A stretch of DNA of 64,000 bases from a virus: the UHGV virus genome UHGV-0218015; one strand, written 5' to 3'. The notes below the pieces were generated by a model. It was not told the origin of the DNA. It did no database searches and saw only the letters and a program-made list of their open reading frames with translations. A program made the translations under genes and the position numbers. Position 1 is the stretch's first letter. Each line of letters starts with the position of its first letter. This document shows, in pieces, positions 19,264-41,380 of this stretch.

Positions 19264-21780
19264 ATGGAGGTGGGTATGCTAAAAGTTGAACGCATTATAC
19301 TCAAAGGTTTTACGGGGATGGGATTACATGAAATTGAAACTTTCGATTTCACTATCCAGTCTCCAACAACAATTATCCTAGGTGGGAACGGTTGCGGGAA
19401 AACCAGTCTACTGTCTGTATTCTTACCCTTAGCACCGGCTAAAACTGAATTCAGAGACGGCGGTTCTTACACGAACTACTGTTTAGTTGGTGATCAACGG
19501 TATCGATTCAAAGTTGCCCGTAAAGGTAACTCTTTGGTTTGCGATATTGAAAATCTGACCACGGGAGCAAAGATCGTCGAGCAAGGTAATGCGAAGGTCT
19601 ACAACTCTCGTGTTGAAGAAATCACGGGTATTACGAAAGAAATTAAAGAACTATTAAATGGTGAGGTTTTGTTAACCGAAGCGGGAACCGAATTACGCCG
19701 TAAATGGTTTTACCGTTTAAGTACCTCTGATCTCACATACGCGTTAGGGTTTTATCAACGTTTGCGTAAAAACCTTACCGCCTTAAATGGAGGTATTGAA
19801 ATCACCAGTCGCAAGATTGCCGAATTACGGACGCGTGTTATTGAGAACGAGGAAGAACGACAACAATTAGCAACGAGATTAAAAGGTCTGGAATCGGATT
19901 TACGTGAACTGAACCGAGAAATCGAACAGTTGCCAGGATTAAATCGTGCTGTCACGATCGAAACAATCCAAGCGTTATTAAACGGTTTGGGTCCAACCAT
20001 CGACGCAATATTACAACATCGTGGTGGGTTGCCTACTGATGAACAGATACTGGTCGCCCGACAAAATGAAGCGACAGCCCGCGAAGCCGTCGTTTCTACC
20101 GAAACAGAGGTATCGATGTTGAATAAAGATTTATCGCTATTGATGGATGAGTCAACACGACAAGACTACCTGATGCGGAACCACGAAGGTCTCAAGAACA
20201 CACTGGCACGTTTACGTGAGTTACTTACCAAGTGGGACACCGAACATCTCTTTCCAGGTTTATTTAACGATAACGTTAATTTAGACCAACTTCGTGCGTC
20301 TACCGATGCGCGTATTTGGGGACAACGGTTGGGGACAACACTGGACGCTATTCATTCAACCGAGAAACTCAATGTTTTGGAAGAACGTCTTCTGGTGATG
20401 GATCAAAAAACCGCAGGATTACGGGATAGACTCCAGCGAGTGGAGAACGTTTTACAGAATTTAAATCACGAGCGTAACCACTACTTAGAAACGGCAGAAG
20501 TGGATTGTCCGCAGTGTCGGTTTAAGTTTCGGCCAGGTGTTACGCGTTCTTTACCTGAACTCGAGTCATCGATTCGTGGTCAACAGCAGCAACGGACGGA
20601 ACTTCAAACACAGCTAGAGACCTTATTACGCGATCGTGTTGAATTAGAATCTGATGTAACTTATATGCGGCAGGTTCGTGAGATTGTACTGACGTATTCA
20701 AAGGACCCTGTATTGAGTATGTTCTTTAAGCGTTTGCAAGAACGTAACGTTTTCACAGAGTCTCGCGAGCAGTTCGGGAGTCTATGCGCAGCGTTTGACG
20801 GTGAGTTGTACTCTGCTATTGAGTACCATGAAACCCGACAACGGTTAGTGAAAGCGGAAAAAGAATGGCAGGATGTCGTGGCGGCCGTTGGTAACGTCGA
20901 TGGTGCTTTACAACAAAAGATCGCCTTCCAACAGTCGAGATTAGGTAAAGCCACAGAGATGCTCTCAATGCATCGTAGAGAGCACGAACTGGCTAACACG
21001 ACACTTACCTATCTAGTGAATTTTAAACGTGCTGTAGATGATTTCAGTGCGTTATTCGAACGGTTAGAGAGTGATGTTAAGGTTACGTTGACAAATACGG
21101 TCGTCGAGGAGCTCTTACGAGCGCGGGAAGGGAAGCTGGATGCTTTTACAACTGCACGCGAACGTTATCGTCAGATGGAAAATGAATTGAACCAGCTCAA
21201 CAGTTTGGAGCGCGAACTTACAGACTTACAAGCCCAACAGTTCAATAACAAACTGATGATTCAAGCCTTCTCGCCAGAAAAGGGTGTACTTAGAAAGTAT
21301 TTTTACAACGCTATCGTTAGAATCACAGAGTTAATGACGCGTTATATCGAACAGGTCTGGACGTACCCCATGCGTGTTATGCCCTGTGATCTCACTGACG
21401 GTGATTTGGATTATACTTTTCCTGTCCAGCTAAAAACGCACCCTGAGCCTGTTCCTGACGTGCGTAAAGGGTCTAAGGCACAGCGTGCTATATTTAATCT
21501 GATGTTCAGACTGACTGCGTACAAAGCGCTGAAGTTGCATCAGTTTCCGTTGCTTTTGGATGAGCCTTCGGAAGGCATGGACGAGGAGCACCGTAATAAC
21601 CTGGTCGGCTTTATTAAAACGTTAGCAAACTCGGGAGAATTTTCACAACTGTTGGTAGTCTCCCACGAAGCCGAGGTTCATTCTAAACTTAATGAAGCAT
21701 CGTACTGTGTCATCGAACCGGAAGGAGTGACATTGCCTGCGGTGTATAACGAAGGAGTAAAAATTGTTTATGCAAACTGA
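19264..21780 (+). CDS. Rad50/SbcC-like ATPase with zinc hook
   Basis: N-terminal P-loop GGNGCGKTS; long predicted coiled coils; central CPQC (zinc-hook-type CxxC); C-terminal Walker B / H-loop LLLDEPSEGMD...VVSHEAE; 838 aa. Confidence 0.7.
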   Translation: MEVGMLKVERIILKGFTGMGLHEIETFDFTIQSPTTIILGGNGCGKTSLLSVFLPLAPAKTEFRDGGSYTNYCLVGDQRYRFKVARKGNSLVCDIENLTTGAKIVEQGNAKVYNSRVEEITGITKEIKELLNGEVLLTEAGTELRRKWFYRLSTSDLTYALGFYQRLRKNLTALNGGIEITSRKIAELRTRVIENEEERQQLATRLKGLESDLRELNREIEQLPGLNRAVTIETIQALLNGLGPTIDAILQHRGGLPTDEQILVARQNEATAREAVVSTETEVSMLNKDLSLLMDESTRQDYLMRNHEGLKNTLARLRELLTKWDTEHLFPGLFNDNVNLDQLRASTDARIWGQRLGTTLDAIHSTEKLNVLEERLLVMDQKTAGLRDRLQRVENVLQNLNHERNHYLETAEVDCPQCRFKFRPGVTRSLPELESSIRGQQQQRTELQTQLETLLRDRVELESDVTYMRQVREIVLTYSKDPVLSMFFKRLQERNVFTESREQFGSLCAAFDGELYSAIEYHETRQRLVKAEKEWQDVVAAVGNVDGALQQKIAFQQSRLGKATEMLSMHRREHELANTTLTYLVNFKRAVDDFSALFERLESDVKVTLTNTVVEELLRAREGKLDAFTTARERYRQMENELNQLNSLERELTDLQAQQFNNKLMIQAFSPEKGVLRKYFYNAIVRITELMTRYIEQVWTYPMRVMPCDLTDGDLDYTFPVQLKTHPEPVPDVRKGSKAQRAIFNLMFRLTAYKALKLHQFPLLLDEPSEGMDEEHRNNLVGFIKTLANSGEFSQLLVVSHEAEVHSKLNEASYCVIEPEGVTLPAVYNEGVKIVYAN

Positions 21781-28063: not shown

Positions 28064-29437
28064 TTACTCCTCGTCTAACTCGCTGTACCATTTCGCTTTC
28101 CGAGACAGGATTCGATATTCCACATTATCGTACTCAAATACCCAGAAATAGTTATCGGGGTCTGCCTCATCGACCAGTTTTACAATGTCTAAGCTAGTTT
28201 GATACGGGTGGTATTCTTCCGCAGCAATAAGTGCCTGGAAGAATAACGCCAACCATTCGGTCGTTGTTTTCGACATACGTGCAATATCAGGGTTAGTCGT
28301 CGCAATTAACGCATAATCCGGGATAGTTTCGTGTAAGGTCGCTTTCCGCGTATCATTTTCCGGCCCACTGATTACAACACAGTTTAATGATTTATAAACG
28401 GTTGGTAAGTCAGTTACATCTGTCGTAGGCTTACTGATCGTTTTAGTATTTCTTTCTGCTACCGTCAGGTCTGCCCATTCTCCAAACCGACTGATAGCTT
28501 TGACCCAGAAATCATATGGAAGGATAGGGGAATAAAGCGCCGCTACGTCTTCCTCATTAGGTATTCCACGAATTTTCCATCCAGGAACAATTGTAAATTT
28601 CGTGGTAGTGAAAATTTCAGGAAATACCTTTACCCCGACGGGGACAGTAAAGCTAGAATTAGCGAGAATATGTTCACGCAACGCTTGCTTTATTTTCGTT
28701 GGGTTTTTTCCCGCACGGCCGTAAATAATAACCGACATTGGGACAACTAGGGTGGACTCGTAGTTTTCTTGATCGTGCCAAGTATAGTAGTTGGTTTGGA
28801 TAGCGGTGTAAGGAAATCCTGCCATTAACTCATTGATTTTCTTATGGTGTTCGGTAAGGTTAAACCCTTCCATCGCCTTTTCAACGACTGACTTGGTCGA
28901 CAAAAATGTGTCGATTGGTGAAATCGGCATCTGCACTTCGATTTCGAACCCTGTGTAATCTTGATCGAAGTCTTCATCCGAGAACCAAACAATGATCTGA
29001 TTATCTACATCAGTGTCATCTTGTACTTGATCTGCTGTTGCTTCATATTTCCAGCTCACCCAGCGTGGGAACCAATTACTGTTCGTCTGAATCATCGCAC
29101 CGGACTGAACGCCAGAAATGGTTGATTGGAATTGTCCTAGTAACAGGCGCTGGAATTCAAGTTCGTCATTTCTCAGATTCCCCAAGATGGCTTGCTGGTA
29201 TATCCATTGAGAAACGGTTAGAATATGATCAGAAAATTCGGCTGGTACAACAACCGTCTGTTTTTCTCGTTTAGACGTAAAAGTCACCAATTGAACTTGC
29301 AAATTGGTTTTGGTAAACGTCTGTTTACTCTTCGCGTACGAGAGTGTCAAATCCGACAGCTCGCCCACCGGAGCGGTGACGCCGTCCTGATTGTCAAACA
29401 GTGCCGGTATCTGAATAAAACCTTGTAAGTCTAACAT
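28064..29437 (-). CDS. hypothetical protein (457 aa), possibly structural
   Basis: Minus-strand ORF with RBS; forms a two-gene inverted cassette inside the plus-strand block. Confidence 0.5.
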   Translation of the reverse strand: MLDLQGFIQIPALFDNQDGVTAPVGELSDLTLSYAKSKQTFTKTNLQVQLVTFTSKREKQTVVVPAEFSDHILTVSQWIYQQAILGNLRNDELEFQRLLLGQFQSTISGVQSGAMIQTNSNWFPRWVSWKYEATADQVQDDTDVDNQIIVWFSDEDFDQDYTGFEIEVQMPISPIDTFLSTKSVVEKAMEGFNLTEHHKKINELMAGFPYTAIQTNYYTWHDQENYESTLVVPMSVIIYGRAGKNPTKIKQALREHILANSSFTVPVGVKVFPEIFTTTKFTIVPGWKIRGIPNEEDVAALYSPILPYDFWVKAISRFGEWADLTVAERNTKTISKPTTDVTDLPTVYKSLNCVVISGPENDTRKATLHETIPDYALIATTNPDIARMSKTTTEWLALFFQALIAAEEYHPYQTSLDIVKLVDEADPDNYFWVFEYDNVEYRILSRKAKWYSELDEE

Positions 29438-29462
29438 AATTAAAAATACTCCGAGGTGAGCA

Positions 29463-29966
29463 ATGGGTTCATTTTTTAAAGTGCTTCCGTTCTTCCTTCA
29501 GATGTTAATGGAAGCATTTAAACCAGGAGAAGGAGAAAACGTATCAAGAGCAAGCAAGATAATGACTTTAATCATCACGATCTTGTTGTCGTATTCTGGC
29601 TTCGTCTCCTACGCCTATGTACAACAGTTTCACGCGCTCGTTGCAGTGCAGTCTCATGACACTTATATGTCACAGTCTTACCAAGAGATGAAACAAGATC
29701 GAGATAAACTAAAAGAAGATAATGATAAGTTATACGACAGACTCTTCGTTTGCCTAGGCCAGAAACCGCCATATGAAAGCACGTTTAATTCATCGAAAGC
29801 GAGCGGTACGACGAAGGATCTGTCCTCGGCAAAACCAGAAACTCCTGTTAATCCGGCTTCAACACCAGAACAACGTAAAGAGGCTTCGGCGAGACCTGTT
29901 GGTAATTTAAACGCGAACAGTTTTCGACAGGAGATCATAAATACGCTATCGTCTTCTAAGGAGTGA
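29463..29966 (+). CDS. membrane protein with transmembrane helix and coiled coil
   Basis: Hydrophobic MTLIITILLSYSGFVSYAYV followed by charged coiled coil EMKQDRDKLKEDNDKLYDRL; 167 aa. Confidence 0.45.
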   Translation: MGSFFKVLPFFLQMLMEAFKPGEGENVSRASKIMTLIITILLSYSGFVSYAYVQQFHALVAVQSHDTYMSQSYQEMKQDRDKLKEDNDKLYDRLFVCLGQKPPYESTFNSSKASGTTKDLSSAKPETPVNPASTPEQRKEASARPVGNLNANSFRQEIINTLSSSKE

Positions 29967-30425
29967 TTGATGAAAATGCTATTATTCATCATGGTAGTGT
30001 TCGTGGGGTTGGTGAGTAATAGCTACGGTGACGAAGTTAAACGTCCAGCTTATAGACCACTGGAACTTCCTCCTGAACCGCCAATAATGGTGAATTGGAA
30101 AATTGACAAGAATGCAATGCGTGAGTATGTTGCAGATGTCAACACCTATGCTTATTACGTTTATGTCTACACACGAAATTTAAACCAGCAAGCCGCTAAA
30201 CGTGGCTGGAGTCCACCAATGTTGGCTCCACTTTGTGAACGCTATGAGTTACCGAAATTACACGTTGTACCTGAGCGCATGTTTCTTGATGAGAGCTCTT
30301 TAACGGCCCAGGAGATTAGCCGTGATTTATCGCGTAAACTCAATAATTTGTTGTGGAATTACCGTTCCGACCGTCAGGCACTGCTCGATTCGTATAACCA
30401 ATACTTGACATCGTGTTTGTACTGA
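29967..30425 (+). CDS. secreted protein (signal peptide)
   Basis: Leader MMKMLLFIMVVFVGLVSNSYG with no lipobox cysteine; 152 aa. Confidence 0.45.
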   Translation: MMKMLLFIMVVFVGLVSNSYGDEVKRPAYRPLELPPEPPIMVNWKIDKNAMREYVADVNTYAYYVYVYTRNLNQQAAKRGWSPPMLAPLCERYELPKLHVVPERMFLDESSLTAQEISRDLSRKLNNLLWNYRSDRQALLDSYNQYLTSCLY

Positions 30426-30428
30426 CAC

Positions 30429-30472
30429 TCCCTCCTGTACCCTTCGAGGTACAGGAGGGCCTTTCTTTTTAA
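30429..30472 (+). terminator. rho-independent terminator
   Basis: Long hairpin CCCTCCTGTACC..GGTACAGGAGGG followed by CTTTCTTTTT. Confidence 0.7.
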
Positions 30473-30514
30473 CGTTTACGACTATTTTAATGTAGACTAA
30501 CAGGAGAATTCAAC

Positions 30515-31249
30515 ATGACCTACCCAAAAATTATCACCCCGTACACACCGACGTTGGTTATTGGTGCCGATGCAGAAACCAAATCGTTACGTCCCGACGC
30601 TTATCTGTTGAGTGCAGGTTTAGTGGCGTTTGACGTCCCTACCTTGAAAATGGTTGGTTCCTCATACATCCGTATCGATCCTAACGATCCTAAAGCAAAA
30701 GCTATTTTCCACGAAGACCCACAAACGGTGGGATGGTGGGAAGGTAAAGGCGAACCTGAATACGCACCGTCTCGTGAAGCCTATGCGGAAGCATGGGGTG
30801 GAACAACAGCATTGCCTGATGCACTGTGGGCGATGCAAAAATGGCTCGGGGAGATCACCGCAAAACATGAGTTTGTTATTACCATGCGCGGTCCCGACTT
30901 CGATGCGCCGATTTTCATGAACGCCTTCGCACAGTGCGATATTCCGCCCGGGAAGTTCCGTAAATTTAGTGCGTTGGATAGCGATCGCACCGCAGAGCGT
31001 TTAGCTTTTGCGTTTGGTTTCGAACCCGACTTAACGGTAGAGCAAGTTTATTGGACGCGCGGTAAGCCCGCTTTTGAGCACCACGCAATGTGGGATGCAG
31101 CAAAAGAAGCCTACACCACGGCACGTATTTATCACCTCGCTTTGGTCACCCGCCAATACGGGTTTGAACGCGCCAAAGCCTGTCACGAAGAACTGAAAAC
31201 TGGCGAGTATGTTGCGCCGCAGATTCGTGATCAATTAACCAGGGATTAA
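30515..31249 (+). CDS. DEDDh-type 3'-5' exonuclease (DnaQ-like)
   Basis: Exo I-like LVIGADAETKS (D-x-E), central GPDFDAPIF, C-terminal HHAMWDAAKEAY (H-x4-D); 244 aa. Confidence 0.6.
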   Translation: MTYPKIITPYTPTLVIGADAETKSLRPDAYLLSAGLVAFDVPTLKMVGSSYIRIDPNDPKAKAIFHEDPQTVGWWEGKGEPEYAPSREAYAEAWGGTTALPDALWAMQKWLGEITAKHEFVITMRGPDFDAPIFMNAFAQCDIPPGKFRKFSALDSDRTAERLAFAFGFEPDLTVEQVYWTRGKPAFEHHAMWDAAKEAYTTARIYHLALVTRQYGFERAKACHEELKTGEYVAPQIRDQLTRD

Positions 31250-31251
31250 GA

Positions 31252-32772
31252 ATGAAGAACGTTGATGTTGCAGTAATTTACACGGACGGTAGCCATTTGA
31301 CCTCCCCGCTCGGTACAGGGGCGGGGATTCATGGATACTTATTTAATCGTGAAGCGATTGAGGATGGTCGGGTTTACCGCCATCCCACTATTCCCGAGGG
31401 GATTACGACGTCAGGATACCGCCAGATAAACAAGGATGAAAAACTTCCGCCTTTACCAGAAACCGTGGAGTTTATTGACGGCGTTGTTCCTGTACCAAAA
31501 ATGTCACACTCCGACGTTGCAGAACTCGTGGCTTTCCTGACCGTCTTCGAACACGCCCCCTTCGTTGCCAAAAACTACGTTATCTATATCGACGCATCTT
31601 ACGTTGTCAACACGTATAACGACTGGATTGATGGTTGGGCAGCACGTGGTTGGCGTCGTGCGGACGGTACACCTATTGCGAATCTGGAATTAATCCAACG
31701 GATGTGGGAGGTTAAACAGCGCTTAAAGAAAGAAGGGAAAGGTGTTCGTGTCCTTAAAATTAAAGGTCACTCTGGACGTTATGGAAACGAACGCGCAGAC
31801 GAGTTAGCGCGGAAAGGCTCAATTATCTCTGCCCGAGGGGAGGGCTTAGACTATACACCGTATTGGTCAAAAGACGAACTGCCTGAGGAAGAACAGCAAC
31901 CGGAAGTTGTTGGTGAGGGTGTCAATTTGTCCGCTTTCCCCGATATCTGTGTTACGAAGTTCTGTTACCCGATGGTGAACGAACCCCATCCCACTGTTAC
32001 AGTTAACGGTAATAAACTTTATTACATGTTCGGTGGAAACCACGCAAAACAGAAGGACGATATCGTCTTCGTTGGTAAGTACATTCCAGATGCACAATTC
32101 TGCGTAATGTTTACCAAAGAACCATGGGATAACGTATACGAGTTGGTAAATACCCATTCTGCGAAAGCGTGGGAAGGGGTGCCCCGTTTACGTCAATTTG
32201 ATCCAATCGCCGTTGTTTTTAACTTATTCGTAAAGCGCAAGAAGTTCGCAGAAGCCGCTGCTAACGGCATTCCTATCGATCGGATGCATTTTAGTGAAGA
32301 CAAAAACCTGTGGATGTTTGAAGATCTTTCGATTACACGAATTCTTCGTCCTGCGCTATTATCTTATCGTTGTATTGCGATTCGTGATGAGCTTGCAGGT
32401 TGGTTACGCGATGCCATGGAAGGGAAAAACTCAGTAGTGTTGAACGACATTACTGACCTGCTTTACGATGAGAAAGGTAAGCCGAAGAAAGATTTTTATC
32501 GTAACGTAGATAAAGGTTTTGACGTAACCATCCAGATCCCTGGTAGTAAAAACAAGGTTAAAGCTATCCTTACTCGAGGTATCGACATACCGACGCGTAC
32601 GGAAATCAACCGTATCAAAGAACCGGAAGGGCGGTTCTACGTGGCTGTACGTCGTCCAGAACGGCAGTATATCGAATACGCGTTGGTTTATATCGGGGAA
32701 AAATATCATGGTTTGTGGTGCGGCTATTATTCAAACAAACGAATATTGACGGATAAGGAGCTTGAATGCTGA
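31252..32772 (+). CDS. RNase HI domain fused to a ~300-aa C-terminal domain of unknown function
   Basis: N-terminal RNase H type 1 motifs VAVIYTDGSH, ELVAFLTVFEHA, YIDASYVVN, WIDGWAARGW, IKGHSGRYGNERADELARKG; start 3 nt after the exonuclease stop; 506 aa. Confidence 0.7.
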   Translation: MKNVDVAVIYTDGSHLTSPLGTGAGIHGYLFNREAIEDGRVYRHPTIPEGITTSGYRQINKDEKLPPLPETVEFIDGVVPVPKMSHSDVAELVAFLTVFEHAPFVAKNYVIYIDASYVVNTYNDWIDGWAARGWRRADGTPIANLELIQRMWEVKQRLKKEGKGVRVLKIKGHSGRYGNERADELARKGSIISARGEGLDYTPYWSKDELPEEEQQPEVVGEGVNLSAFPDICVTKFCYPMVNEPHPTVTVNGNKLYYMFGGNHAKQKDDIVFVGKYIPDAQFCVMFTKEPWDNVYELVNTHSAKAWEGVPRLRQFDPIAVVFNLFVKRKKFAEAAANGIPIDRMHFSEDKNLWMFEDLSITRILRPALLSYRCIAIRDELAGWLRDAMEGKNSVVLNDITDLLYDEKGKPKKDFYRNVDKGFDVTIQIPGSKNKVKAILTRGIDIPTRTEINRIKEPEGRFYVAVRRPERQYIEYALVYIGEKYHGLWCGYYSNKRILTDKELEC

Positions 32773-33434
32773 TCGTTTATAGTGAGGTCTTGTCAAAAGC
32801 CCCTCGGTTTTTACAAACTCACTTTATGTATAACGCACGGCAGTATTGGGGCTTTAAAGCCCCTTACTCCGAAGATTGGGAAGTTGTGGAAAAGTTGGCA
32901 TTTGTGTTTTCTCTTTCGTTGTTGTGGGAGATCATTGCACTATACAACGCGGGTTGTGATATCCCTGAGAACGGCTTTTTCCAACAACACCTATTCCAAA
33001 AATTCACAGCATCGATAGAAAATCATGAAGTACGCAAGGAGTGTATCGGCTACGCAGAGCATTCTGAAGAATTGAGAAAGATTTCCAAATTAGTTATCAC
33101 GCGGGCATGGGCTGAATTCGAAACTTACCCCGAAAAAATAATTTGGTTTAATCGTGAACAGTTTATTAAAGAGGCAGTCAGTCAACATCCCGTTCGATTA
33201 ATCGTGTTAAAGCCATCCGATCTTGCCTTACGCCGTGTCTATTCGTTTCCAGAGGAAATCATTTTTTCCGCAGGAACAGCAGATTATGGTATTTTTAAGC
33301 AAGGCGATTCTTGGATTCTTCCGCACGACTTAGACCAGTATTTGCTCAGTAGCGATCAAATACATTCGGGTTATGACTCACAAGTGAAGGAGTTTACAGC
33401 CGATCCTTTTTTCATTAAAAATATTCTTAGATAG
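32766..33434 (+). CDS. hypothetical protein (222 aa)
   Basis: ATG overlaps the RNase H stop (ATGCTGA). Confidence 0.5.
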   Translation: MLIVYSEVLSKAPRFLQTHFMYNARQYWGFKAPYSEDWEVVEKLAFVFSLSLLWEIIALYNAGCDIPENGFFQQHLFQKFTASIENHEVRKECIGYAEHSEELRKISKLVITRAWAEFETYPEKIIWFNREQFIKEAVSQHPVRLIVLKPSDLALRRVYSFPEEIIFSAGTADYGIFKQGDSWILPHDLDQYLLSSDQIHSGYDSQVKEFTADPFFIKNILR

Positions 33435-33453
33435 ATATTATCCAGGTGTAACA
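33434..33453 (+). promoter_or_regulatory. promoter-like motif variant AGATATTATCCAGGTGTAAC
   Basis: Resembles the motif at 42551-42570 and, more loosely, the TATATTAC motifs at 11394 and 15786; about 18 nt upstream of the ATG at 33471. Confidence 0.3.
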
Positions 33454-33470
33454 CCATTGGAGTTATTAGA

Positions 33471-34211
33471 ATGCTAAAAGTTTATGTCCCTCAATTACAA
33501 CGTATCAATCCCTCGTTGTTCGAGGGAATCTTTTATAAAATTTGGCCACAATACTTCAATGAACGTTTGAAAGACCCGAGGTGGTCGACCGTACAAGGAG
33601 AATTCTTTTATACCGCACAAACCGCCTGCACAGGTATTTTCACTCAGTTCATTGGAGAAATTATTAACGCCGTCAACACTAACCGAACTGTCGACCTACG
33701 TGACGTTACAGTAGACCTTTCTGCAATCTACGATAACTACGATTGTGATGATGCTGTGTTCGAACACTTTTCTGTTGAAGACGTTTGGGAAGCAGTGTAC
33801 CAGTGGTTAGAGTATTACGTGAATTACCTACTCTCCCCAGAGATGTTAGAAACCTTCAACAAAGCACTCTTTCCTATTTATAACGACTTACTCAACGTTA
33901 AACAAACAAAGAACCTGGTTGGGTTCTGGTATTCGACCTACGACGCCGAATGTAAGTTGTGGGAAAAAGAAATGATTGCTTACGGGATAGAACGGGGAGA
34001 CTATGTTGAGATTCACTGTGGTTTCTGGCCTTTCAGTCACTACGAGAACGCACGGCTTGGTATTTCACGATTGTGGTCGTTTTATCTCTGTGAAGCTACG
34101 GGCGTTATTTACCTTGAAGACAGCGGCGAACAAATCCCTAACGGTACTGTTGTAACATACTGTCAGATTCGAGAAGATCGGGGTCGGCCAATTTATCAGG
34201 AGTACGTATAA
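33471..34211 (+). CDS. hypothetical protein (246 aa)
   Basis: First of four tightly packed plus-strand ORFs with overlapping or abutting stops and starts. Confidence 0.5.
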   Translation: MLKVYVPQLQRINPSLFEGIFYKIWPQYFNERLKDPRWSTVQGEFFYTAQTACTGIFTQFIGEIINAVNTNRTVDLRDVTVDLSAIYDNYDCDDAVFEHFSVEDVWEAVYQWLEYYVNYLLSPEMLETFNKALFPIYNDLLNVKQTKNLVGFWYSTYDAECKLWEKEMIAYGIERGDYVEIHCGFWPFSHYENARLGISRLWSFYLCEATGVIYLEDSGEQIPNGTVVTYCQIREDRGRPIYQEYV

Positions 34212-34753
34212 TGAAAATACTTATCGATTTCTCACTCAGCGAGTCACGGGACAAATTAAACAAAGTGTTAAGTGAGATGCGTAGTCGCGTTGCGTTTGAA
34301 TTACACGATGCGATAGCAGTGCATGAGAATAAGATTTCTGAAGAACACGATGGAGCTGATATTACTATCCTGGATTCAGAAGCGATGGTGAATAACCTCG
34401 TTGAGCAGTTAGTGATAAAAATCAGTTCGGCTATGACATACCCGCATTTAGTACGGGTAACTGATCCCGATACGGATATTCAGCTGATTCTTGAGAAAGC
34501 CTTTCTACATGCCGCGCATTACTTACAGAATAATGCTCCAGATACCCTCGACGAAGTATACGTCGCAATATTGCAGCGCCAATCTTCAACGACAGATATA
34601 ATAGACACAACGTGTTGGAGCGATATTCTTACCAACGAAACGATGTCCCGTATCCGGGATATTTTCCTTGAGACACTCGGGTTAGTTGAGAAAATCTGCC
34701 ATGCTGAGCTCATCTACCTATCGTCAAAATACGGACAACCTAAAGGAGTATAA
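34211..34753 (+). CDS. hypothetical protein (180 aa)
   Basis: Complete ORF; start overlaps the previous stop. Confidence 0.5.
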   Translation: MKILIDFSLSESRDKLNKVLSEMRSRVAFELHDAIAVHENKISEEHDGADITILDSEAMVNNLVEQLVIKISSAMTYPHLVRVTDPDTDIQLILEKAFLHAAHYLQNNAPDTLDEVYVAILQRQSSTTDIIDTTCWSDILTNETMSRIRDIFLETLGLVEKICHAELIYLSSKYGQPKGV

Positions 34754-34755
34754 TC

Positions 34756-35280
34756 GTGGATATTTTAATTCAGCTTCGTAAGAAAACAACCATTGCCACG
34801 CCGATAGAGTTAGAGGAGAAAATCTCTGGCGCGGTTGCACGCAAGCTCTGTGGTGCTCACGGCTTTAGCAGTCATCAGGAACAGGTCGTTACTGCCGCTA
34901 CATTACACAACTTACGGCACGCAGTTCATTACTGTTTAGTTGACAACGTCACCATCACTCTTGATGATAACGTAAAAGTCGACCAACTGCGACGCGAAAT
35001 TGTCCACAAGATCGAGGCTTACAATAGACGTTTCGATCGTGTGTGCGCGCGTTTAACTGGTGACGAGGCTCTACGAAAACGTTTGAAACTTGAAATTGAG
35101 TATGCTGCGCAGCGTTACGGGATTGGCGGCACCGAACCGTGTCTGGCTGAACAAGAAATCGATTTAGCAATCGAGGTTTATACCATTCTCTGCTGCGCCA
35201 TCCTAAAAGAGACCAACCACGAAATTACAAAAGCATTGTTAGACACCGCAGACAGACTCACCCCAATTTTAGGACAATAA
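34756..35280 (+). CDS. hypothetical protein (174 aa)
   Basis: Complete ORF with GTG start and AAAGGAG RBS. Confidence 0.5.
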   Translation: MDILIQLRKKTTIATPIELEEKISGAVARKLCGAHGFSSHQEQVVTAATLHNLRHAVHYCLVDNVTITLDDNVKVDQLRREIVHKIEAYNRRFDRVCARLTGDEALRKRLKLEIEYAAQRYGIGGTEPCLAEQEIDLAIEVYTILCCAILKETNHEITKALLDTADRLTPILGQ

Positions 35281-35281
35281 A

Positions 35282-35770
35282 ATGAACTTAAATCATATCT
35301 TCGACATTCGTAACTGCGATATCGTACATGAATTTCTCAATAACGAAACACGTGTACGAAAAGAAATTGAAGAAAAGTTGACTCCGTTGGTTGCAGACAC
35401 TCCTTGGATGGCGGCTTACGCCGCGTCCTACTTTTCTTCTCGGTGCCTAACGCAATACATATTTATCCTATTTGACTTCTCCGATCTATCAAGCAAGCGC
35501 ATAACAGAAACAGACGTTCGGCAACGCCTACGCCATGGTCGCGACGAGTTCTTAAAGAAAGTTTCTGATGCGTACCACATGGAGCGATTCCCTACTCCAC
35601 TAGTCCCCTACACAGAACCGGAATGGGAAAAATTTTATACCCGGATTTGGGTTGAAGATTCTCACTTGGACGAAATCATGGAAATCATCGAACGTAATGA
35701 AAACCTACTTTCCTTACAGCTATGGGAGTGGCTAAAAGCTAATTATCCTGATTACGTCAAAATCGACTAA
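35282..35770 (+). CDS. hypothetical protein (162 aa)
   Basis: Complete ORF followed by a terminator. Confidence 0.5.
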   Translation: MNLNHIFDIRNCDIVHEFLNNETRVRKEIEEKLTPLVADTPWMAAYAASYFSSRCLTQYIFILFDFSDLSSKRITETDVRQRLRHGRDEFLKKVSDAYHMERFPTPLVPYTEPEWEKFYTRIWVEDSHLDEIMEIIERNENLLSLQLWEWLKANYPDYVKID

Positions 35771-35774
35771 TAGA

Positions 35775-35808
35775 CACCCTAGCTTCGGCTAGGGTAACTT
35801 TATTTTTA
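35775..35808 (+). terminator. rho-independent terminator
   Basis: Hairpin ACCCTAGCTTCGGCTAGGGT followed by AACTTTATTTTT. Confidence 0.65.
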
Positions 35809-35829
35809 ACCATTTTAGGAGAATATACC

Positions 35830-36756
35830 ATGTATTTGTACAAAAGTAAAAAAGTAAAAGGTATTAAAGACTGCCTTAGACAAATGGGGAGTCAGCATCT
35901 AGAAAATGTCATGGAAGAAAATCAAACAAAAGAAAATCCCGTCTCGAAATGGATAAAAAAGAATCGTAAGCATTTAACTAATGCCTTTATACCCTACGAC
36001 GCTGAGTTAGGTCTCAAAGATCCCCGTTCCCTTCACGCTCAAACATTGGCAATTGGATGGCTATACGGGGGTGCTTCCTTAATATCCAATCGAGCACTTA
36101 GAGAACTTGTTTTCGAGACTGAGATACCCACTAAATTCCCTGAAGAGTGGTTAGACTTTATACCTACTTGGACTGTAGCAATCGATGTAGGTAAAGAAGA
36201 TGAGACTTTCTTTCTCGGTTATCGAAAAAATAGGAATAGAAGGTTTATTATAATTGCTACAAATACTGATTACGGGTTAACAGAAGGCGTTACCACAATC
36301 GCCACCTGCTCGTTAGAGATATGTAGTGTTGGAAACGGGCTTGTTGAAATCGATTATACAACTGACGTACAGACCGAACAAGAGAAGACGTTATGGCTAT
36401 CACTGGCCAAAACCGCCATATCGTTGATATTTCTCTGTACGCTAATCCCGCCCAATCTCAGAGGGTCTTTCAATGACATTAAGTTCAAAGAAATCAAAAA
36501 GAATGGTAGTATAAGTCACGAAATCAAACCTCGTGAACGTGACGTTAAAATAGACATCACGCCAGGACAAGTGAAATATCTAAAGGGATTTAACACCGAC
36601 TTGAAAACCATGGAAGGTATCAAACACGCCAAGGCCGCACATATTCGTCGCGCGCACTGGCGCAGATATTGGGTCGGTCCAAGAGATGGGGAAAGGAAGA
36701 GAAAACTTTACTGGATTCCGCCTACATTTGTCCGTGGCTACGTACCCCACAATTAA
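35830..36756 (+). CDS. hypothetical protein (308 aa), paralog A with C-terminal HIRRAHWRR motif
   Basis: C-terminus AKAAHIRRAHWRRYWVGP...WIPPTFVRGY and internal LAIGWLYGGASLIS are shared with the next gene. Confidence 0.5.
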   Translation: MYLYKSKKVKGIKDCLRQMGSQHLENVMEENQTKENPVSKWIKKNRKHLTNAFIPYDAELGLKDPRSLHAQTLAIGWLYGGASLISNRALRELVFETEIPTKFPEEWLDFIPTWTVAIDVGKEDETFFLGYRKNRNRRFIIIATNTDYGLTEGVTTIATCSLEICSVGNGLVEIDYTTDVQTEQEKTLWLSLAKTAISLIFLCTLIPPNLRGSFNDIKFKEIKKNGSISHEIKPRERDVKIDITPGQVKYLKGFNTDLKTMEGIKHAKAAHIRRAHWRRYWVGPRDGERKRKLYWIPPTFVRGYVPHN

Positions 36757-36781
36757 GCTAAAAGTGTTTAGGAGCATTAAA

Positions 36782-37681
36782 ATGATAGCGAATAATAGAC
36801 TTTACGGGAAAGCGCTAAGACGCATGAGCGAACAGATAGAAAAAGCGCACCAAACAATTCACGGATTAGACCAGTGCCGTTTTATTCGGTTCATTAACGA
36901 GCATAAACGACAAATACCCGTAACGTTTATGCCAGTTAAAGATCCGACCTATCGAGAGTATGGCGTTACGGAACAGATTCCCAGACTGATTAAACAGTCC
37001 CTGGGCCTAGGATGGCAATACGCTGCTGTTGAAATCATCTCAGACGAAGAACTGATGGCGCTCTTAGCAAAAACTGAGAGACTAAAAAATATCCCGTACT
37101 TCTGGATAGAAACCATCCCTTCATTTACTTTCTCGGTTACCGTAAATCTCGACGAAAGCCCAATCACGTTATTTATCGGAAGACGTCTTTACGAAGGCGA
37201 AGAAGTTCTCTTCGTAATGTCATGCGAAGAACGTGAAGAATCGGTATACATGGAGTTTGAGATTTACAAAATCGATAAAAGCGAAGATGATTTCGTCGTG
37301 CTAAAGCCGCTTCTTACTTCGGTTAAGGAGAATCAACGACTACTCGACGCCGTCTACATCGGGCTATATCTTTCGTCACGAATTAAACGTACTGAACGTG
37401 AAAAGAAAGAATTTCGTGGAAGAACGATTCGTTATGTTCCTGATACAGAGATTCGCCCACGTAGTGAAGCAGTCGTTTTAGACGTAAGTCCGGTACAATG
37501 GGAAGATATAGAGCAGCAACGCAAGGAAGGACACGAAGTTTGTTTGGCAATTTATTGCGCAGCACATATCCGCCGTGCTCATTGGAAGCGTGTATGGTGT
37601 GGTAAAATGTCAGAAATGCGCTGGCGCGAATGGCGATGGATAGCGCCAAGCTACATCTCTGGATTTTATCGTGGGAAATAA
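36782..37681 (+). CDS. hypothetical protein (about 299 aa), paralog B with C-terminal HIRRAHWKR motif
   Basis: C-terminus AAHIRRAHWKRVWCG...WIAPSYISGFY; start taken at the first ATG after the upstream stop (track ORF begins at 36686, overlapping the previous gene). Confidence 0.5.
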   Translation: MIANNRLYGKALRRMSEQIEKAHQTIHGLDQCRFIRFINEHKRQIPVTFMPVKDPTYREYGVTEQIPRLIKQSLGLGWQYAAVEIISDEELMALLAKTERLKNIPYFWIETIPSFTFSVTVNLDESPITLFIGRRLYEGEEVLFVMSCEEREESVYMEFEIYKIDKSEDDFVVLKPLLTSVKENQRLLDAVYIGLYLSSRIKRTEREKKEFRGRTIRYVPDTEIRPRSEAVVLDVSPVQWEDIEQQRKEGHEVCLAIYCAAHIRRAHWKRVWCGKMSEMRWREWRWIAPSYISGFYRGK

Positions 37682-38896: not shown

Positions 38897-40393
38897 ATGG
38901 CAGGCCCAACTAAGCAAGTTATCGGTGAAGTAATTCGTCCACGTTTTAACGTTTACACCATCATGGATCATGCCTTAGGTAACTACGAAAAAGGTGAAGA
39001 TGGTTTGTACTACCTTAACGGTGGTTTTGCCCACATCATGGGTTTCGCAGGTCGCGGTAACACCTTTAAATCTACCTTGTTAGATTTCTGTATCTTCCAA
39101 ATCCTGCAACGTTATAAAGCAGAGTGGGGTTCTAAGTACGATACAGAAGTGTCCGCCGCCCTCGATCGTTTAGAAACTGGGTACATCTCTGCCATGAACG
39201 CCAACGGTATCGACGACGGAACGTCCGTATTGGAACTCATCCACGAAGGTCGTTATAACCTGGTCGGTTCTGATGTAATGCCTGGGGAACAGTATTACAG
39301 TGATTATATTCGTGATGAAGTTGAAAAACGCTTCAAGCAGTATATGTCTGGTAAAACCCGCGTAACGCCGTTCCCCGATCCGGTTCGTCGTAAGTTAAAA
39401 GAAATCCTGGACCCCTGGCTCTATTCTATCGACTCTTTGTCAGAGTGGCATTCCAGTTCGCTGGAAGACAAACACGCAAAAACGGATATCGGTGATTCTG
39501 ATCAGAACATCCTGAACGCCCACGATGCACTGCAAAAATCGAACATGATGAGCCGCTGGCCGTCTGCGTTTGCACGCGGTGGTTTCTATATGGGTTTCGT
39601 GGCACAGATGGCCGATGACTCTGGGAAAGCGATGGCAGGTGGTCGTCAGGCACAAAAAGCAAATGCGAAAATTCTTGACGATGCCAACGACGATTTAAAA
39701 TTCGCAGGTATTCCTCGCCGTCAGCTTAGCTTTTTAACAAACTCTTTTATCGTCGCGACGAAATCAGGGGAGTTGAAGAAAGACCAGAGCTATAACGCAC
39801 AGACCGGTGTTAACGAAGAACTTTATCCGACGTCACGTTCTAAAGCGATGAATGCTTCGGTAAACGACTTGAAGATTATCACCTTTACTCAGTATCGTGC
39901 GAAGGGTGGTCACACCGGTGTGAAATTCCAGATGATCTTCTCTCAGGAAATGGGTCTGTTATATCACCTGAGCCTGTGGCACTATTTAAGTGACACGCTG
40001 AAGAAATCAGACTTTGGTTTTACGTCAAGCGGAAGCGGCGGCTCCATCAAAGAACTGGACATTTTACCTGGTGTGAAATTCCAACGCACGACAATCCGTG
40101 ATATGATTTCTGATAACGCACGCTTACGTCGCGCTTTAGAAATCACGGCGGCAATCGCGTATATGCAAAACAACTACCACCGTCTTGAAATGAAGTATCA
40201 TCTCAGCATGGGTGAGATTTACAAACTGATTGACGAGAAGTGGGACTGGAATGAAATTCTGGATAACACGGTAGAATACTGGATGTTTAAAGACCAGGAA
40301 ACCAAAGGTGGTAAACGTACACTGACTGCACGTACTATTCTGGGTATGGCTGTCGATGGACTAGAACCGAAGTTCCTGACGAAAAAGAAATAA
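38897..40393 (+). CDS. hypothetical protein (498 aa) with P-loop-like GFAGRGNTFKST segment
   Basis: Glycine-rich loop followed by FKST loosely recalls UvsX/RecA-type P-loops, but no clear Walker B was found; function not assigned. Confidence 0.45.
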   Translation: MAGPTKQVIGEVIRPRFNVYTIMDHALGNYEKGEDGLYYLNGGFAHIMGFAGRGNTFKSTLLDFCIFQILQRYKAEWGSKYDTEVSAALDRLETGYISAMNANGIDDGTSVLELIHEGRYNLVGSDVMPGEQYYSDYIRDEVEKRFKQYMSGKTRVTPFPDPVRRKLKEILDPWLYSIDSLSEWHSSSLEDKHAKTDIGDSDQNILNAHDALQKSNMMSRWPSAFARGGFYMGFVAQMADDSGKAMAGGRQAQKANAKILDDANDDLKFAGIPRRQLSFLTNSFIVATKSGELKKDQSYNAQTGVNEELYPTSRSKAMNASVNDLKIITFTQYRAKGGHTGVKFQMIFSQEMGLLYHLSLWHYLSDTLKKSDFGFTSSGSGGSIKELDILPGVKFQRTTIRDMISDNARLRRALEITAAIAYMQNNYHRLEMKYHLSMGEIYKLIDEKWDWNEILDNTVEYWMFKDQETKGGKRTLTARTILGMAVDGLEPKFLTKKK

Positions 40394-40437: not shown

Positions 40438-40737
40438 ATGCGTTATCAAACGGAGATTGTGGAACGCTTAAGTGAAGGATTGGCAAGTGTTAATTTAGAA
40501 ACAGCGGCCGAATTTCGTGAAGCCTTCACTCTTCCGTTTCCCGATCTGGAATCCTTTTGTTTAAAGGTCGCTGAGTATTACTCGAATCTATTAGTACGTT
40601 ACGGGTATGCGCCAGTACGTTCCGAACTTCCTGAAAACACGGAAGCTATCAGCTACTGGATTGACCTGCTTGAAGCAGAAACGTTATCCAATTTACGTAA
40701 GGCGGTAGACAATGAAACTCGAACCAGCGCGGCGTAA
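40438..40737 (+). CDS. hypothetical protein (99 aa)
   Basis: ORF with AGGAG RBS, preceded by the stem-loop CGGGTAGGGTAAACCCTACCCG. Confidence 0.45.
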   Translation: MRYQTEIVERLSEGLASVNLETAAEFREAFTLPFPDLESFCLKVAEYYSNLLVRYGYAPVRSELPENTEAISYWIDLLEAETLSNLRKAVDNETRTSAA

Positions 40738-41380
40738 AAAGGCGGAAGCCTACGCCTTACAAATCTTAAAGTTGGTAGACCCTTCTGGCATTAATGCCGA
40801 AGCCGCGAAGAAAGCCTTCGCACGAATGACCGACGAACAGTTTAACCGACTTCGTAACGGTTTACCTATTTACAACCCGGTGGGAAGTAAAGTCGAAATT
40901 GACCACCTGCGCAATATCGAGGTGTGCAAAATCCTAGGGGTAAACCTGGAGCAACGGTTGTGGCTAACAGAACCAAAAACAGGTGTTTATCACCGTACTC
41001 GTTACCCTCACTTGGTCTTACGCTTGCCTGTCCGTCGTCAGACGCAGATGCAAGAGAAGAAAATGGCGGTTGCGAAGAACGACAAAGTTCGCGATAAACT
41101 CTCCGGTCAAGTTGTCGGTCCTTCCAAAGCATCCGGGGTCTCCTTCCCAGAAGCATACATCATGTATTCCGATGGTCACGACTGGACACTGAAAGAGTTC
41201 TTGTGGGCGCGTGGTGGTAACGACGCACTACAACGTGCTTTCTATCAGTCGCTGCGCCAAACCGGTAAAGGACGTATCGATTTGCCTGGAGCTGAGCGAA
41301 CGAGTTCTAAAGCAACACGGACGTGGTCAGCGTACCTCAAAGCGATGCATATCGGTAACAACATAGGCCATCCGTCATGA
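40712..41380 (+). CDS. hypothetical protein (222 aa)
   Basis: Complete ORF overlapping the previous gene by 26 nt. Confidence 0.5.
   Translation: MKLEPARRKKAEAYALQILKLVDPSGINAEAAKKAFARMTDEQFNRLRNGLPIYNPVGSKVEIDHLRNIEVCKILGVNLEQRLWLTEPKTGVYHRTRYPHLVLRLPVRRQTQMQEKKMAVAKNDKVRDKLSGQVVGPSKASGVSFPEAYIMYSDGHDWTLKEFLWARGGNDALQRAFYQSLRQTGKGRIDLPGAERTSSKATRTWSAYLKAMHIGNNIGHPS

What the first reader, a model, noticed from the sequence alone, without database searches (positions are those of the whole stretch)
30515..32772. DEDDh exonuclease translationally coupled to an RNase HI with a 300-aa C-terminal extension
A DnaQ-like 3'-5' exonuclease ends 3 nt before an RNase HI whose catalytic domain occupies only the first ~190 of 506 residues. 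The remaining ~300 aa have no recognisable motifs and are unlikely to be a linker. The pairing suggests a dedicated nucleic-acid processing module.
Basis: partly seen in the sequence, partly recalled or inferred. Interest (0 to 1): 0.5.

Follow-up and report, generated by a model that had tools for sequence, protein, structure and literature searches.

The report
Jumbo-phage polymerase clamp-RNase H plus exonuclease
The long "RNase H" is the ortholog of a recently described subunit of the DNA-copying machine of nucleus-forming giant phages: its extra 300 residues are a sliding-clamp-like domain, and the exonuclease gene in front of it is a T4 DexA-type add-on found in only one branch of these phages.

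Summary
The window is part of a ~225-kb nucleus-forming jumbo phage (Chimalliviridae, SPN3US/Asesino branch).

The 506-aa protein is the end-to-end ortholog of PhiKZ gp155 (Nlp2). It has an intact RNase HI domain (residues 1-195), a flexible acidic linker, and a compact C-terminal domain.
- An October 2026 preprint describes this architecture in PhiKZ as "Rhc", a clamp-derived processivity subunit of the split B-family DNA polymerase.
- A 2025 Nature paper showed gp155 is essential for genome amplification, independently of RNase H catalysis.

So the "unexplained extension" is already explained.

The upstream 244-aa protein is a DEDDh 3'-5' exonuclease of Pfam PF16473, the family of T4 DexA. 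It is not a DnaQ-type protein.

The exonuclease-rhc adjacency is strictly conserved wherever this exonuclease subfamily occurs (28 of 28 loci, down to 31% identity). It is absent from PhiKZ and three other chimallivirus lineages. It is therefore a lineage-specific accessory gene, not an obligatory partner. Two lineages keep an intact copy with a degenerate active site, which is unexplained.

Overall this is a new member of a known kind, of low-to-moderate interest.

The parts
30430..30469 (+). A 12-bp GC-rich hairpin followed by a T-run (intrinsic-terminator-like), directly upstream of the exonuclease gene. It likely separates the gp156-like genes from the exo-rhc unit.
   Evidence: Sequence read. 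It is the strongest terminator-like site in 29300-35900 (12 pairs, 8 of them GC, tail CCTTTCTTTT).
30515..31249 (+). DexA-family (Pfam PF16473) DEDDh 3'-5' exonuclease, 244 aa. It is the ortholog of SPN3US gp206 and Asesino gp225.
   Evidence: PF16473 at 1.9e-11 and 44.4 bits, above the cut-off of 27. phrog_255 at 2.5e-44. 64-68% identity to the Asesino and SPN3US genes. DEDDh residues conserved. hhalign against T4 DexA gives probability 92.8%. The best PDB profile hit is T4 DexA 8KEL, E=0.0036.
31252..31836 (+). rhc ortholog, N-terminal RNase HI domain (residues 1-195). Catalytic residues are D12, E91, D114 and D183, plus H173. There is a structured insertion at residues ~31-80.
   Evidence: PF00075 at 7.2e-21. 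PDB RNase HI hits down to 8.6e-12. Catalytic residues invariant in 51 homologs. pLDDT above 90. D114 aligns with the PhiKZ155 D102 that was mutated in the Nature 2025 study.
31837..31938 (+). Acidic, low-confidence linker between the two domains (residues ~196-229, including EEEQQPE).
   Evidence: pLDDT falls to 47 for residues 211-220, and the segment 210-217 is below 50. This region varies in length and is gapped in the family alignment. It agrees with the 'flexibly-linked RNase H domain' of the preprint.
31939..32772 (+). rhc ortholog, C-terminal sliding-clamp-related domain (residues ~230-506), followed by the stop codon.

Best explanation
**What the 506-aa protein is.** It is the ortholog of PhiKZ gp155 (Nlp2), the protein I infer to be 'Rhc'. 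In that family, the C-terminal clamp-derived domain docks as a single subunit on the split B-family DNA polymerase (DNAP-N plus DNAP-C). Together with the polymerase thumb it grips the duplex leaving the active site and boosts synthesis. The RNase HI domain hangs on a flexible acidic linker, where it can remove RNA (primers or R-loops) from the template. These steps were shown for PhiKZ in the literature and are inferred here by orthology.

**What the upstream gene is.** It encodes a T4-DexA-family DEDDh 3'-5' exonuclease. It was inserted once, directly upstream of rhc, in the ancestor of the SPN3US/Erwinia/Vibrio branch of Chimalliviridae. It is co-transcribed with rhc, and very probably co-translated.

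**Most likely role of the exonuclease (inferred, about 30% confidence).** It is an accessory 3'-end trimming enzyme for replication or recombination intermediates, or for the RNA and DNA fragments left after RNase H action. It is not an obligatory partner of Rhc, because most chimalliviruses do without it.
For: **Orthology.**
- BLASTP against PHIKZ155 aligns residues 5-494 with 3-476, E=1e-32.
- phrog_3265 matches full-length at 2.8e-170.
- Synteny with the PhiKZ gp157 <-| |-> gp156.1, gp156, gp155 block is conserved. The gp157 ortholog scores E=8e-49, and orthologs of gp149, gp152 and gp165 lie nearby.
- PHIKZ199, the only other PhiKZ RNase H, is 143 aa. gp155 is therefore the only two-domain RNase H in PhiKZ.

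**Clamp relation, obtained here independently.**
- PCNAs top the Foldseek list.
- Clamps recur among the weak BFVD hits.

**Literature.**
- The Rhc preprint, PMC13648687.
- PhiKZ155 is essential for nucleus maturation and genome amplification, and the catalytic mutant D102N still complements, PMC12571901.
- gp155 is a nuclear cargo imported via Imp1/PicA.
- PhiKZ-group phages lack a classical clamp.

**Exonuclease.**
- PF16473 membership and conserved DEDDh residues.
- Relation to T4 DexA.
- Adjacency to rhc in 28 of 28 loci, with stop/start overlap or a spacer of 15 nt or less in every locus where gene boundaries were read.
- Absence from four other Rhc-bearing lineages that share the same synteny.
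Against: - Only the abstract of the Rhc preprint is held, and it gives no gene number. Equating Rhc with gp155 is an inference by elimination.
- Identity to PhiKZ155 is only 25%, so the polymerase-binding interface may differ.
- No DNA polymerase gene lies in this window, so the presence of the partner was not checked.
- Nothing here tests the substrate or location of the exonuclease, or whether it binds Rhc.
- The whole block is syntenic in these phages, so conserved adjacency may reflect vertical inheritance rather than functional coupling.
Confidence: 0.8

Rival explanations
1. Dedicated two-protein module. The exonuclease is a physical partner of Rhc, docking on the clamp-derived domain much as the epsilon proofreader contacts the beta clamp in E. 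coli Pol III. It would supply 3'-end editing or primer and flap trimming to the replisome of the SPN3US-branch phages.
For: - Adjacency is strictly conserved, with overlapping or near-abutting stop and start codons, in 28 of 28 loci down to 31% identity.
- Both enzymes act on nucleic-acid ends relevant to replication.
- Two lineages retain an intact, full-length exonuclease with a degenerate active site: L029 has D19V/E21K/D130H and L014 has E21A/D194E. That would be expected if the protein also has a structural role.
- A C-terminal segment conserved within this branch (GFER...TGEY, G230 nearly invariant) has no aligned counterpart in the partial hhalign match to T4 DexA.
Against: - PhiKZ, PA_ZH1, SPLA10, Xoo-sp14 and L015 carry Rhc in the same syntenic slot without any exonuclease. 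Rhc function therefore does not require it.
- The flanking genes are equally syntenic, so adjacency is weak evidence.
- The B-family core polymerase may already carry its own proofreading function on a separate protein.
Confidence: 0.15
2. DexA-like scavenger. As in T4, the exonuclease degrades host DNA or oligonucleotides to feed nucleotide pools, or resects 3' ends in recombination or homing. On this reading its position in front of rhc merely reflects shared middle-gene timing.
For: - It belongs to the same Pfam family as T4 DexA.
- A 'putative exonuclease' of the chimallivirus RAY is cytoplasmic, although its homology to this protein was not tested.
- Nucleotide-metabolism genes (thymidylate synthase, MazG) lie in the same window.
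Against: - A scavenger would not be expected to stay glued to rhc in every lineage.
- Copies with a degenerate active site are retained intact.
- Identity to DexA is very low; the PDB profile hit is only E=0.0036 and covers only the N-terminal half.
Confidence: 0.25
3. The C-terminal domain is mainly a nuclear-import or scaffold module (a PicA/Imp1-binding cargo domain, or a platform at the nuclear shell), and its clamp-like fold is incidental.
For: - gp155/Nlp2 import depends on specific Imp1 surfaces.
- GFP-gp155 forms a punctum at the nuclear periphery.
- Knock-down blocks nucleus maturation.
- My fold scores are modest.
Against: - Cryo-EM structures and primer-extension assays in the preprint place the domain on the polymerase and on duplex DNA.
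- The two roles are not mutually exclusive.
Confidence: 0.1

Closest known systems
PhiKZ gp155 = Nlp2, inferred here to be the 'Rhc' of Basu et al. (bioRxiv, Oct 2026, PMC13648687). Also studied in Gerovac et al., Nature 2025 (PMC12571901) and Kokontis et al. 2024.
   Same: - Same two-domain architecture: RNase HI, linker, then a ~290-aa clamp-related domain.
- End-to-end alignment, E=1e-32.
- Same catalytic residues.
- Same syntenic slot next to the gp157-like virion protein.
- Same phage family (Chimalliviridae).
   Different: - Only 25% identical, and 506 aa against 482 aa.
- Here it is preceded by an exonuclease gene and a strong hairpin terminator. In PhiKZ, gp156.1, gp156, gp155 and gp154 are reported to be co-transcribed and there is no exonuclease.
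- No biochemistry exists for this branch.
SPN3US gp207 and Asesino gp226 ('putative ribonuclease H'), and SPN3US gp206 and Asesino gp225 ('putative endodeoxyribonuclease')
   Same: - Direct orthologs at 64-68% identity (Rhc 64-67%, exonuclease 64-68%).
- Same gene order and tight spacing.
   Different: - The database names are uninformative or wrong. 'Endodeoxyribonuclease' does not fit a DEDDh exonuclease.
- The window phage is a distinct species known only from metagenomes, with no megablast hit among isolates. It is 99-100% identical to two IMG/VR genomes.
Monomeric or C-shaped viral processivity factors with the clamp fold (HSV-1 UL42, HCMV UL44, KSHV PF-8, ASFV E301R) and canonical clamps (PCNA, 9-1-1, beta clamp, T4 gp45)
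   Same: - They work with a B-family polymerase to hold duplex DNA.
- According to the preprint a single subunit acts, rather than a closed ring, as with UL42.
   Different: - There is no detectable sequence similarity, and global superposition is poor (TM 0.2-0.3).
- The domain is fused to an RNase H.
- No clamp loader is implied.
- It is not a family member in the strict sense.
T4 DexA (exonuclease A; PDB 8KEL) and M. tuberculosis Rv2179c, both in Pfam PF16473
   Same: - Same Pfam family.
- Same DEDDh catalytic set, with all five positions aligned.
   Different: - Very distant: the PDB profile E-value is 0.0036 and covers only the N-terminal half.
- It has a conserved C-terminal tail of its own.
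- It is fixed upstream of rhc.
- Its substrate (DNA or RNA) is unknown.

Membership tests
Rhc / PhiKZ gp155 (Nlp2) family of chimallivirus RNase H-clamp proteins | N-terminal RNase HI domain with the catalytic carboxylates | tested here: met
   PF00075 at 7.2e-21. PDB RNase HI hits. D12, E91, D114, D183 and H173 are conserved in 51 homologs.
Rhc / PhiKZ gp155 (Nlp2) family of chimallivirus RNase H-clamp proteins | [quoted passage not shown] | tested here: met
   [not shown]
Rhc / PhiKZ gp155 (Nlp2) family of chimallivirus RNase H-clamp proteins | Full-length sequence homology to PhiKZ gp155 | tested here: met
   BLASTP E=1e-32, 25% identity, residues 5-494 aligned with 3-476. phrog_3265 matches full-length at 2.8e-170.
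Rhc / PhiKZ gp155 (Nlp2) family of chimallivirus RNase H-clamp proteins | Conserved position in the chimallivirus core gene block | tested here: met
   The gp157 ortholog is divergently transcribed upstream (E=8e-49). The same layout is seen in PhiKZ, PA_ZH1, SPLA10 and Xoo-sp14.
Rhc / PhiKZ gp155 (Nlp2) family of chimallivirus RNase H-clamp proteins | Flexible tether between the RNase H and clamp-like domains | tested here: met
   pLDDT is below 50 for residues 210-217. The full-length pTM of 0.59 against 0.90 for the C-terminal domain alone points to an undefined inter-domain orientation. This is in silico evidence only.
Rhc / PhiKZ gp155 (Nlp2) family of chimallivirus RNase H-clamp proteins | Binds the DNAP-N/DNAP-C core and stimulates primer extension; imported into the phage nucleus via PicA/Imp1 | not testable with these tools
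   Known only for PhiKZ from the literature. No DNA polymerase gene was found in this 64-kb window among the ORFs scanned.
Canonical sliding clamps (PCNA, beta clamp, T4 gp45) | Clamp fold with good global superposition and a family sequence signature | tested here: inconclusive
   [not shown]
Canonical sliding clamps (PCNA, beta clamp, T4 gp45) | Closed ring oligomer loaded by a clamp loader | not testable with these tools
   The preprint reports a single Rhc subunit per polymerase. PhiKZ-group phages are reported to lack a classical clamp. I do not file the protein as a canonical clamp.
PF16473 (Rv2179c-like / T4 DexA) DEDDh 3'-5' exonucleases | Pfam match above the gathering threshold | tested here: met
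   44.4 bits against a cut-off of 27, over residues 19-203. T4 DexA itself scores 79.9 bits on the same model.
PF16473 (Rv2179c-like / T4 DexA) DEDDh 3'-5' exonucleases | DEDDh catalytic residues (Exo I DxE, Exo II D, Exo III H-x4-D) | tested here: met
   D19, E21, D130, H189 and D194 all align with T4 DexA. They are conserved in 26 of 28 orthologs.
PF16473 (Rv2179c-like / T4 DexA) DEDDh 3'-5' exonucleases | 3'-5' exonuclease activity on ssDNA or RNA | not testable with these tools
   No biochemical data exist for this subfamily. Literature searches for SPN3US gp206/gp207 found nothing relevant.
DnaQ / epsilon-type proofreading exonuclease (Pfam RNase_T, PF00929) | Match to the DnaQ/RNase T family model | tested here: not met
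   Only PF16473 is reported at E of 0.1 or below. There is no NCBIfam hit. RNase T structures appear only at E=0.05-0.23 with the profile. It shares the DEDDh superfamily but is not a DnaQ member.

The most novel reading that the evidence does not exclude
In the SPN3US/Erwinia/Vibrio branch of nucleus-forming phages, the DexA-like exonuclease may be a genuine additional replisome subunit. It would dock on the clamp-derived domain of Rhc, giving a polymerase / clamp-RNase H / exonuclease assembly with trans-acting 3'-end editing. This would also explain why intact copies with degenerate active sites are kept: the protein would have a structural role as well.
Probability: 0.15. Interest if true: 0.55.

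Novelty: new member of a known kind. Interest (0 to 1): 0.3.

Why it matters
- It shows that a gene annotated only as "putative ribonuclease H" in SPN3US-, Asesino- and CR5-like phages, and in many metagenomic jumbo phages, is the clamp-derived processivity subunit recently defined in PhiKZ.
- The clamp relationship can be recovered independently from a predicted structure at only 25% identity to PhiKZ gp155. This supports the idea that the Rhc mechanism is general to Chimalliviridae.
- The new element is small. One large branch has fixed a DexA-type exonuclease immediately upstream of rhc, sometimes with a dead active site.
- If that exonuclease turns out to join the replisome, it would add a component to a still poorly understood replication machine that lacks an identified primase and classical clamp.

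Tried and rejected
- **Megablast** of the 2.3-kb region against isolate phages gave no match. Protein-level searches were needed.
- **Sequence-only searches of the C-terminal domain** found nothing meaningful. These were Pfam on 23 members at E up to 10, a PDB profile search and NCBIfam. Hits such as spindlin, DUF7552 and rotavirus VP7 are noise.
- **The AFDB libraries** were not available.
- **A stand-alone C-terminal domain.** An exhaustive HMMER search found 135 clusters, almost all 480-550 aa with the domain at the C-terminus. The short hits look like fragments, and two very long proteins with multiple short matched stretches look spurious.
- **The idea that the exonuclease is the missing proofreader of the split polymerase**, the 'exonuclease encoded elsewhere' of Iyer et al. 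2021, is rejected as a general explanation. PhiKZ-like phages lack this gene at tblastn E of 1e-5 or below. I did not run a profile search of the whole PhiKZ genome, so a very divergent PF16473 member there is not excluded.
- **The 'DnaQ-like' label** is rejected in favour of PF16473/DexA-like.
- **Literature** on SPN3US gp206/gp207 and on Asesino protein localisation held nothing on these two genes.
- **Sigma-70 promoter scan** was no better than shuffled sequence, as expected for a phage that uses its own RNA polymerases.
Full report
**1. Observation**

The two ORFs are present exactly as described: 30515-31249 (+, 244 aa) and 31252-32772 (+, 506 aa). The first ends with TAA at 31247-31249. 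Two bases (GA) separate it from the ATG of the second, and an AGGGA motif sits just upstream inside the first gene. The second gene overlaps the next ORF (start 32766) by 7 nt. A 12-bp GC-rich hairpin with a T-run lies at 30430-30469, directly upstream of the first gene. Both proteins have many homologs at very strong E-values, so these are real genes.

**2. Where the window comes from**

- Neighbouring ORFs match PHROG families of jumbo-phage virion and replication proteins.
- The closest isolates are Erwinia phage Asesino and Salmonella phage SPN3US and its SPFM relatives, at 64-68% protein identity, with identical gene order.
- More distant full-length matches are PhiKZ-like Pseudomonas phages.
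- Asesino is a demonstrated nucleus-forming phage of the Chimalliviridae (abstract of PMC11724907).
- There is no megablast match among isolate genomes. Two IMG/VR metagenomic genomes of 221-225 kb encode 99-100% identical proteins.

**3. The 506-aa protein**

*RNase H domain.* Pfam RNase_H covers residues 81-190 (7.2e-21), and solved RNase HI structures align to 86-190. The first catalytic Asp is in YTDGS (D12). E91, D114, H173 and D183 are invariant, and D12 nearly so, in an alignment of 51 homologs. A confidently modelled insertion (about residues 31-80) interrupts the domain.

*The extension by sequence.* phrog_3265 ('ribonuclease') matches the whole length at 2.8e-170, so the extension is a family trait. 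An exhaustive HMMER search with residues 200-506 found 135 clusters. Almost all are 480-550 aa with the match at the C-terminus, which means the domain essentially always sits behind an RNase H. It has no Pfam, NCBIfam or PDB sequence match.

*The extension by structure.* The AlphaFold2 model of the full protein has pLDDT 92.0 and pTM 0.59, with a disordered acidic stretch at 210-217. The C-terminal 289 residues alone give pLDDT 92.9 and pTM 0.90. The picture is two rigid domains on a flexible tether.
- Foldseek against PDB also ranks PCNAs first, but without significance (best E=5e-3, TM 0.2-0.3).
- Against BFVD, the domain matches jumbo-phage 'ribonuclease H' proteins at TM 0.66-0.93. Beta clamps, PCNA and herpes accessory factors appear again among the weak hits.

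I read this as a genuine but distant clamp-fold relationship.

**4. What is known**

- The protein aligns end to end with PHIKZ155 (E=1e-32, 25% identity). It occupies the same slot next to the divergently transcribed gp157 ortholog (E=8e-49).
- The PhiKZ155 residue D102, mutated in the published catalytic mutant, aligns with D114 here.
- Gerovac et al. (Nature 2025, PMC12571901) showed that PhiKZ155 (Nlp2) is a core chimallivirus protein. It is a bona fide RNase H, it is essential for nucleus maturation and genome amplification, and D102N still complements. [quoted passage not shown]
- Kokontis et al. showed that it is a nuclear cargo imported via Imp1.
- Iyer et al. (2021) noted that this phage group lacks a classical sliding clamp and that all its members carry RNase H1.
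- Basu et al. (bioRxiv, 1 Oct 2026, PMC13648687; only the abstract is held) report that the PhiKZ split DNA polymerase (DNAP-N plus DNAP-C) binds 'Rhc'. [quoted passage not shown] A single Rhc subunit cooperates with the polymerase thumb to hold duplex DNA and strongly boosts primer extension, while the RNase H domain is flexibly linked.
- The only other PhiKZ RNase H, gp199, is 143 aa. Rhc must therefore be gp155; this is an inference by elimination.

The '300-aa extension' is thus already explained, and my fold search reproduces the published relationship independently on a 25%-identical ortholog.

**5. The 244-aa protein**

- It is a member of Pfam PF16473 (44.4 bits against a cut-off of 27) and of phrog_255 'exonuclease'.
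- T4 DexA belongs to the same Pfam family (79.9 bits).
- A profile of 26 orthologs matches T4 DexA by hhalign at 92.8% probability. Its best PDB hit is DexA 8KEL (E=0.0036), followed by RNase T.
- All five DEDDh positions (D19, E21, D130, H189-x4-D194) align with those of DexA and are conserved in 26 of 28 orthologs.
- It is not a DnaQ-family member. There is no PF00929 or NCBIfam hit.
- The public label 'putative endodeoxyribonuclease' is misleading.

**6. The pairing**

- In isolates, the exonuclease is followed immediately by rhc in Asesino (15-nt spacer), SPN3US and SPFM19 (1-nt overlap), CR5 (14-nt overlap) and Vibrio phage pVp-JHP1101 (8-nt overlap).
- The same holds on metagenomic contigs whose Rhc is only 30-46% identical to the window protein.
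- It also holds in 19 of 19 IMG/VR loci retrieved with the exonuclease profile, giving 28 of 28 loci overall.
- PhiKZ, PA_ZH1, SPLA10, Xoo-sp14 and a metagenomic lineage keep the same syntenic block without the exonuclease.
- tblastn finds the exonuclease in only 65 phage records, while 172 records carry a full-length Rhc.
- A distant relative occurs alone in a small temperate Vibrio phage.

The simplest history is a single insertion in the ancestor of the SPN3US/Erwinia/Vibrio branch, followed by vertical inheritance. The neighbours are just as syntenic, so adjacency alone is weak evidence of a physical partnership.

One observation points the other way. Two lineages keep an intact, full-length exonuclease that still abuts rhc but has a degenerate active site. 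L029 has D19V/E21K/D130H, and L014 has E21A/D194E.

**7. Mechanism and verdict**

- *Shown for PhiKZ, inferred here.* The clamp-derived domain docks on the split polymerase and grips the product duplex. The tethered RNase HI removes RNA from the template.
- *Inferred, low confidence.* The exonuclease is a co-expressed accessory 3'-end trimming enzyme.
- *Rivals.* A dedicated Rhc-bound editing subunit (about 0.15), or a DexA-like scavenging and recombination nuclease whose position is incidental (about 0.25).

This is a new member of a recently characterised family, with a lineage-specific exonuclease linkage as the only new angle.

Noticed in passing
L029:2935-3705 (IMGVR_UViG_3300011741_000001) and L014:2468-3193 (Logan ERR11042179 contig): These are intact, full-length orthologs of the exonuclease that still abut or overlap the rhc start, but their active sites are degenerate. 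L029 has D19V/E21K/D130H and L014 has E21A/D194E. All 26 other orthologs keep DEDDh. This suggests either a non-catalytic role or ongoing decay.
   Followed up: partly
window 30430-30469: A strong hairpin terminator (12 bp, 8 of them GC, followed by a T-run) lies between the gp156-like ORF and the exonuclease gene. In PhiKZ, gp156.1, gp156, gp155 and gp154 are reported to be co-transcribed, so the transcription unit may be organised differently here.
   Followed up: partly
window 30515-32772 versus L018 and L020: The window's exonuclease and Rhc are 99-100% identical to two IMG/VR metagenomic genomes (3300029126_000001 at 225 kb, and 3300045988_113438 at 220.8 kb). No isolate phage gives a megablast hit, so this appears to be an uncultured species of the SPN3US/Asesino branch.
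   Followed up: partly
BFVD entries I1VX43 (233 aa) and G4KKB4 (247 aa): Two stand-alone viral proteins of PCNA-like size match the Rhc C-terminal fold (Foldseek E=9e-9 and 9e-4). They may be free-standing relatives of the clamp-derived domain.
   Followed up: no
window 31342-31491 (Rhc residues ~31-80): The RNase HI domain carries a ~50-residue insertion after the first beta-hairpin. It is confidently modelled (pLDDT above 94) and conserved across the family, including PhiKZ155. Its role is unknown.
   Followed up: no
window 35830-36756 and 36686-37681: Two adjacent ORFs that overlap by 71 nt both match phrog_6160 (unknown function). They look like tandem paralogs.
   Followed up: no
window 92-4276 and 4287-8609 (minus strand): Two adjacent giant virion structural proteins (1394 and 1440 aa) share several PHROG families (8078, 7557, 7449, 2163). 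They appear to be paralogs.
   Followed up: no
window 19264-21780, 28064-29437, 38897-40393, 40712-41380: These ORFs fall in the PHROG families annotated for PhiKZ gp165 (SbcC-like), gp152 (UvsX/RecA-like recombinase, Nlp1) and gp149 (RNA polymerase beta fragment); the fourth, 28064-29437, was compared directly with gp157 (virion protein, E=8e-49). Together they indicate a conserved gp147-gp165-like core block. No DNA polymerase gene was seen among the larger ORFs scanned.
   Followed up: partly
window 32766-33434: The ORF downstream of rhc (222 aa, overlapping it by 7 nt) matches phrog_9472 only over its C-terminal half. The gene in the same position in Asesino and SPN3US is 244-246 aa. Its function is unknown.
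   Followed up: no
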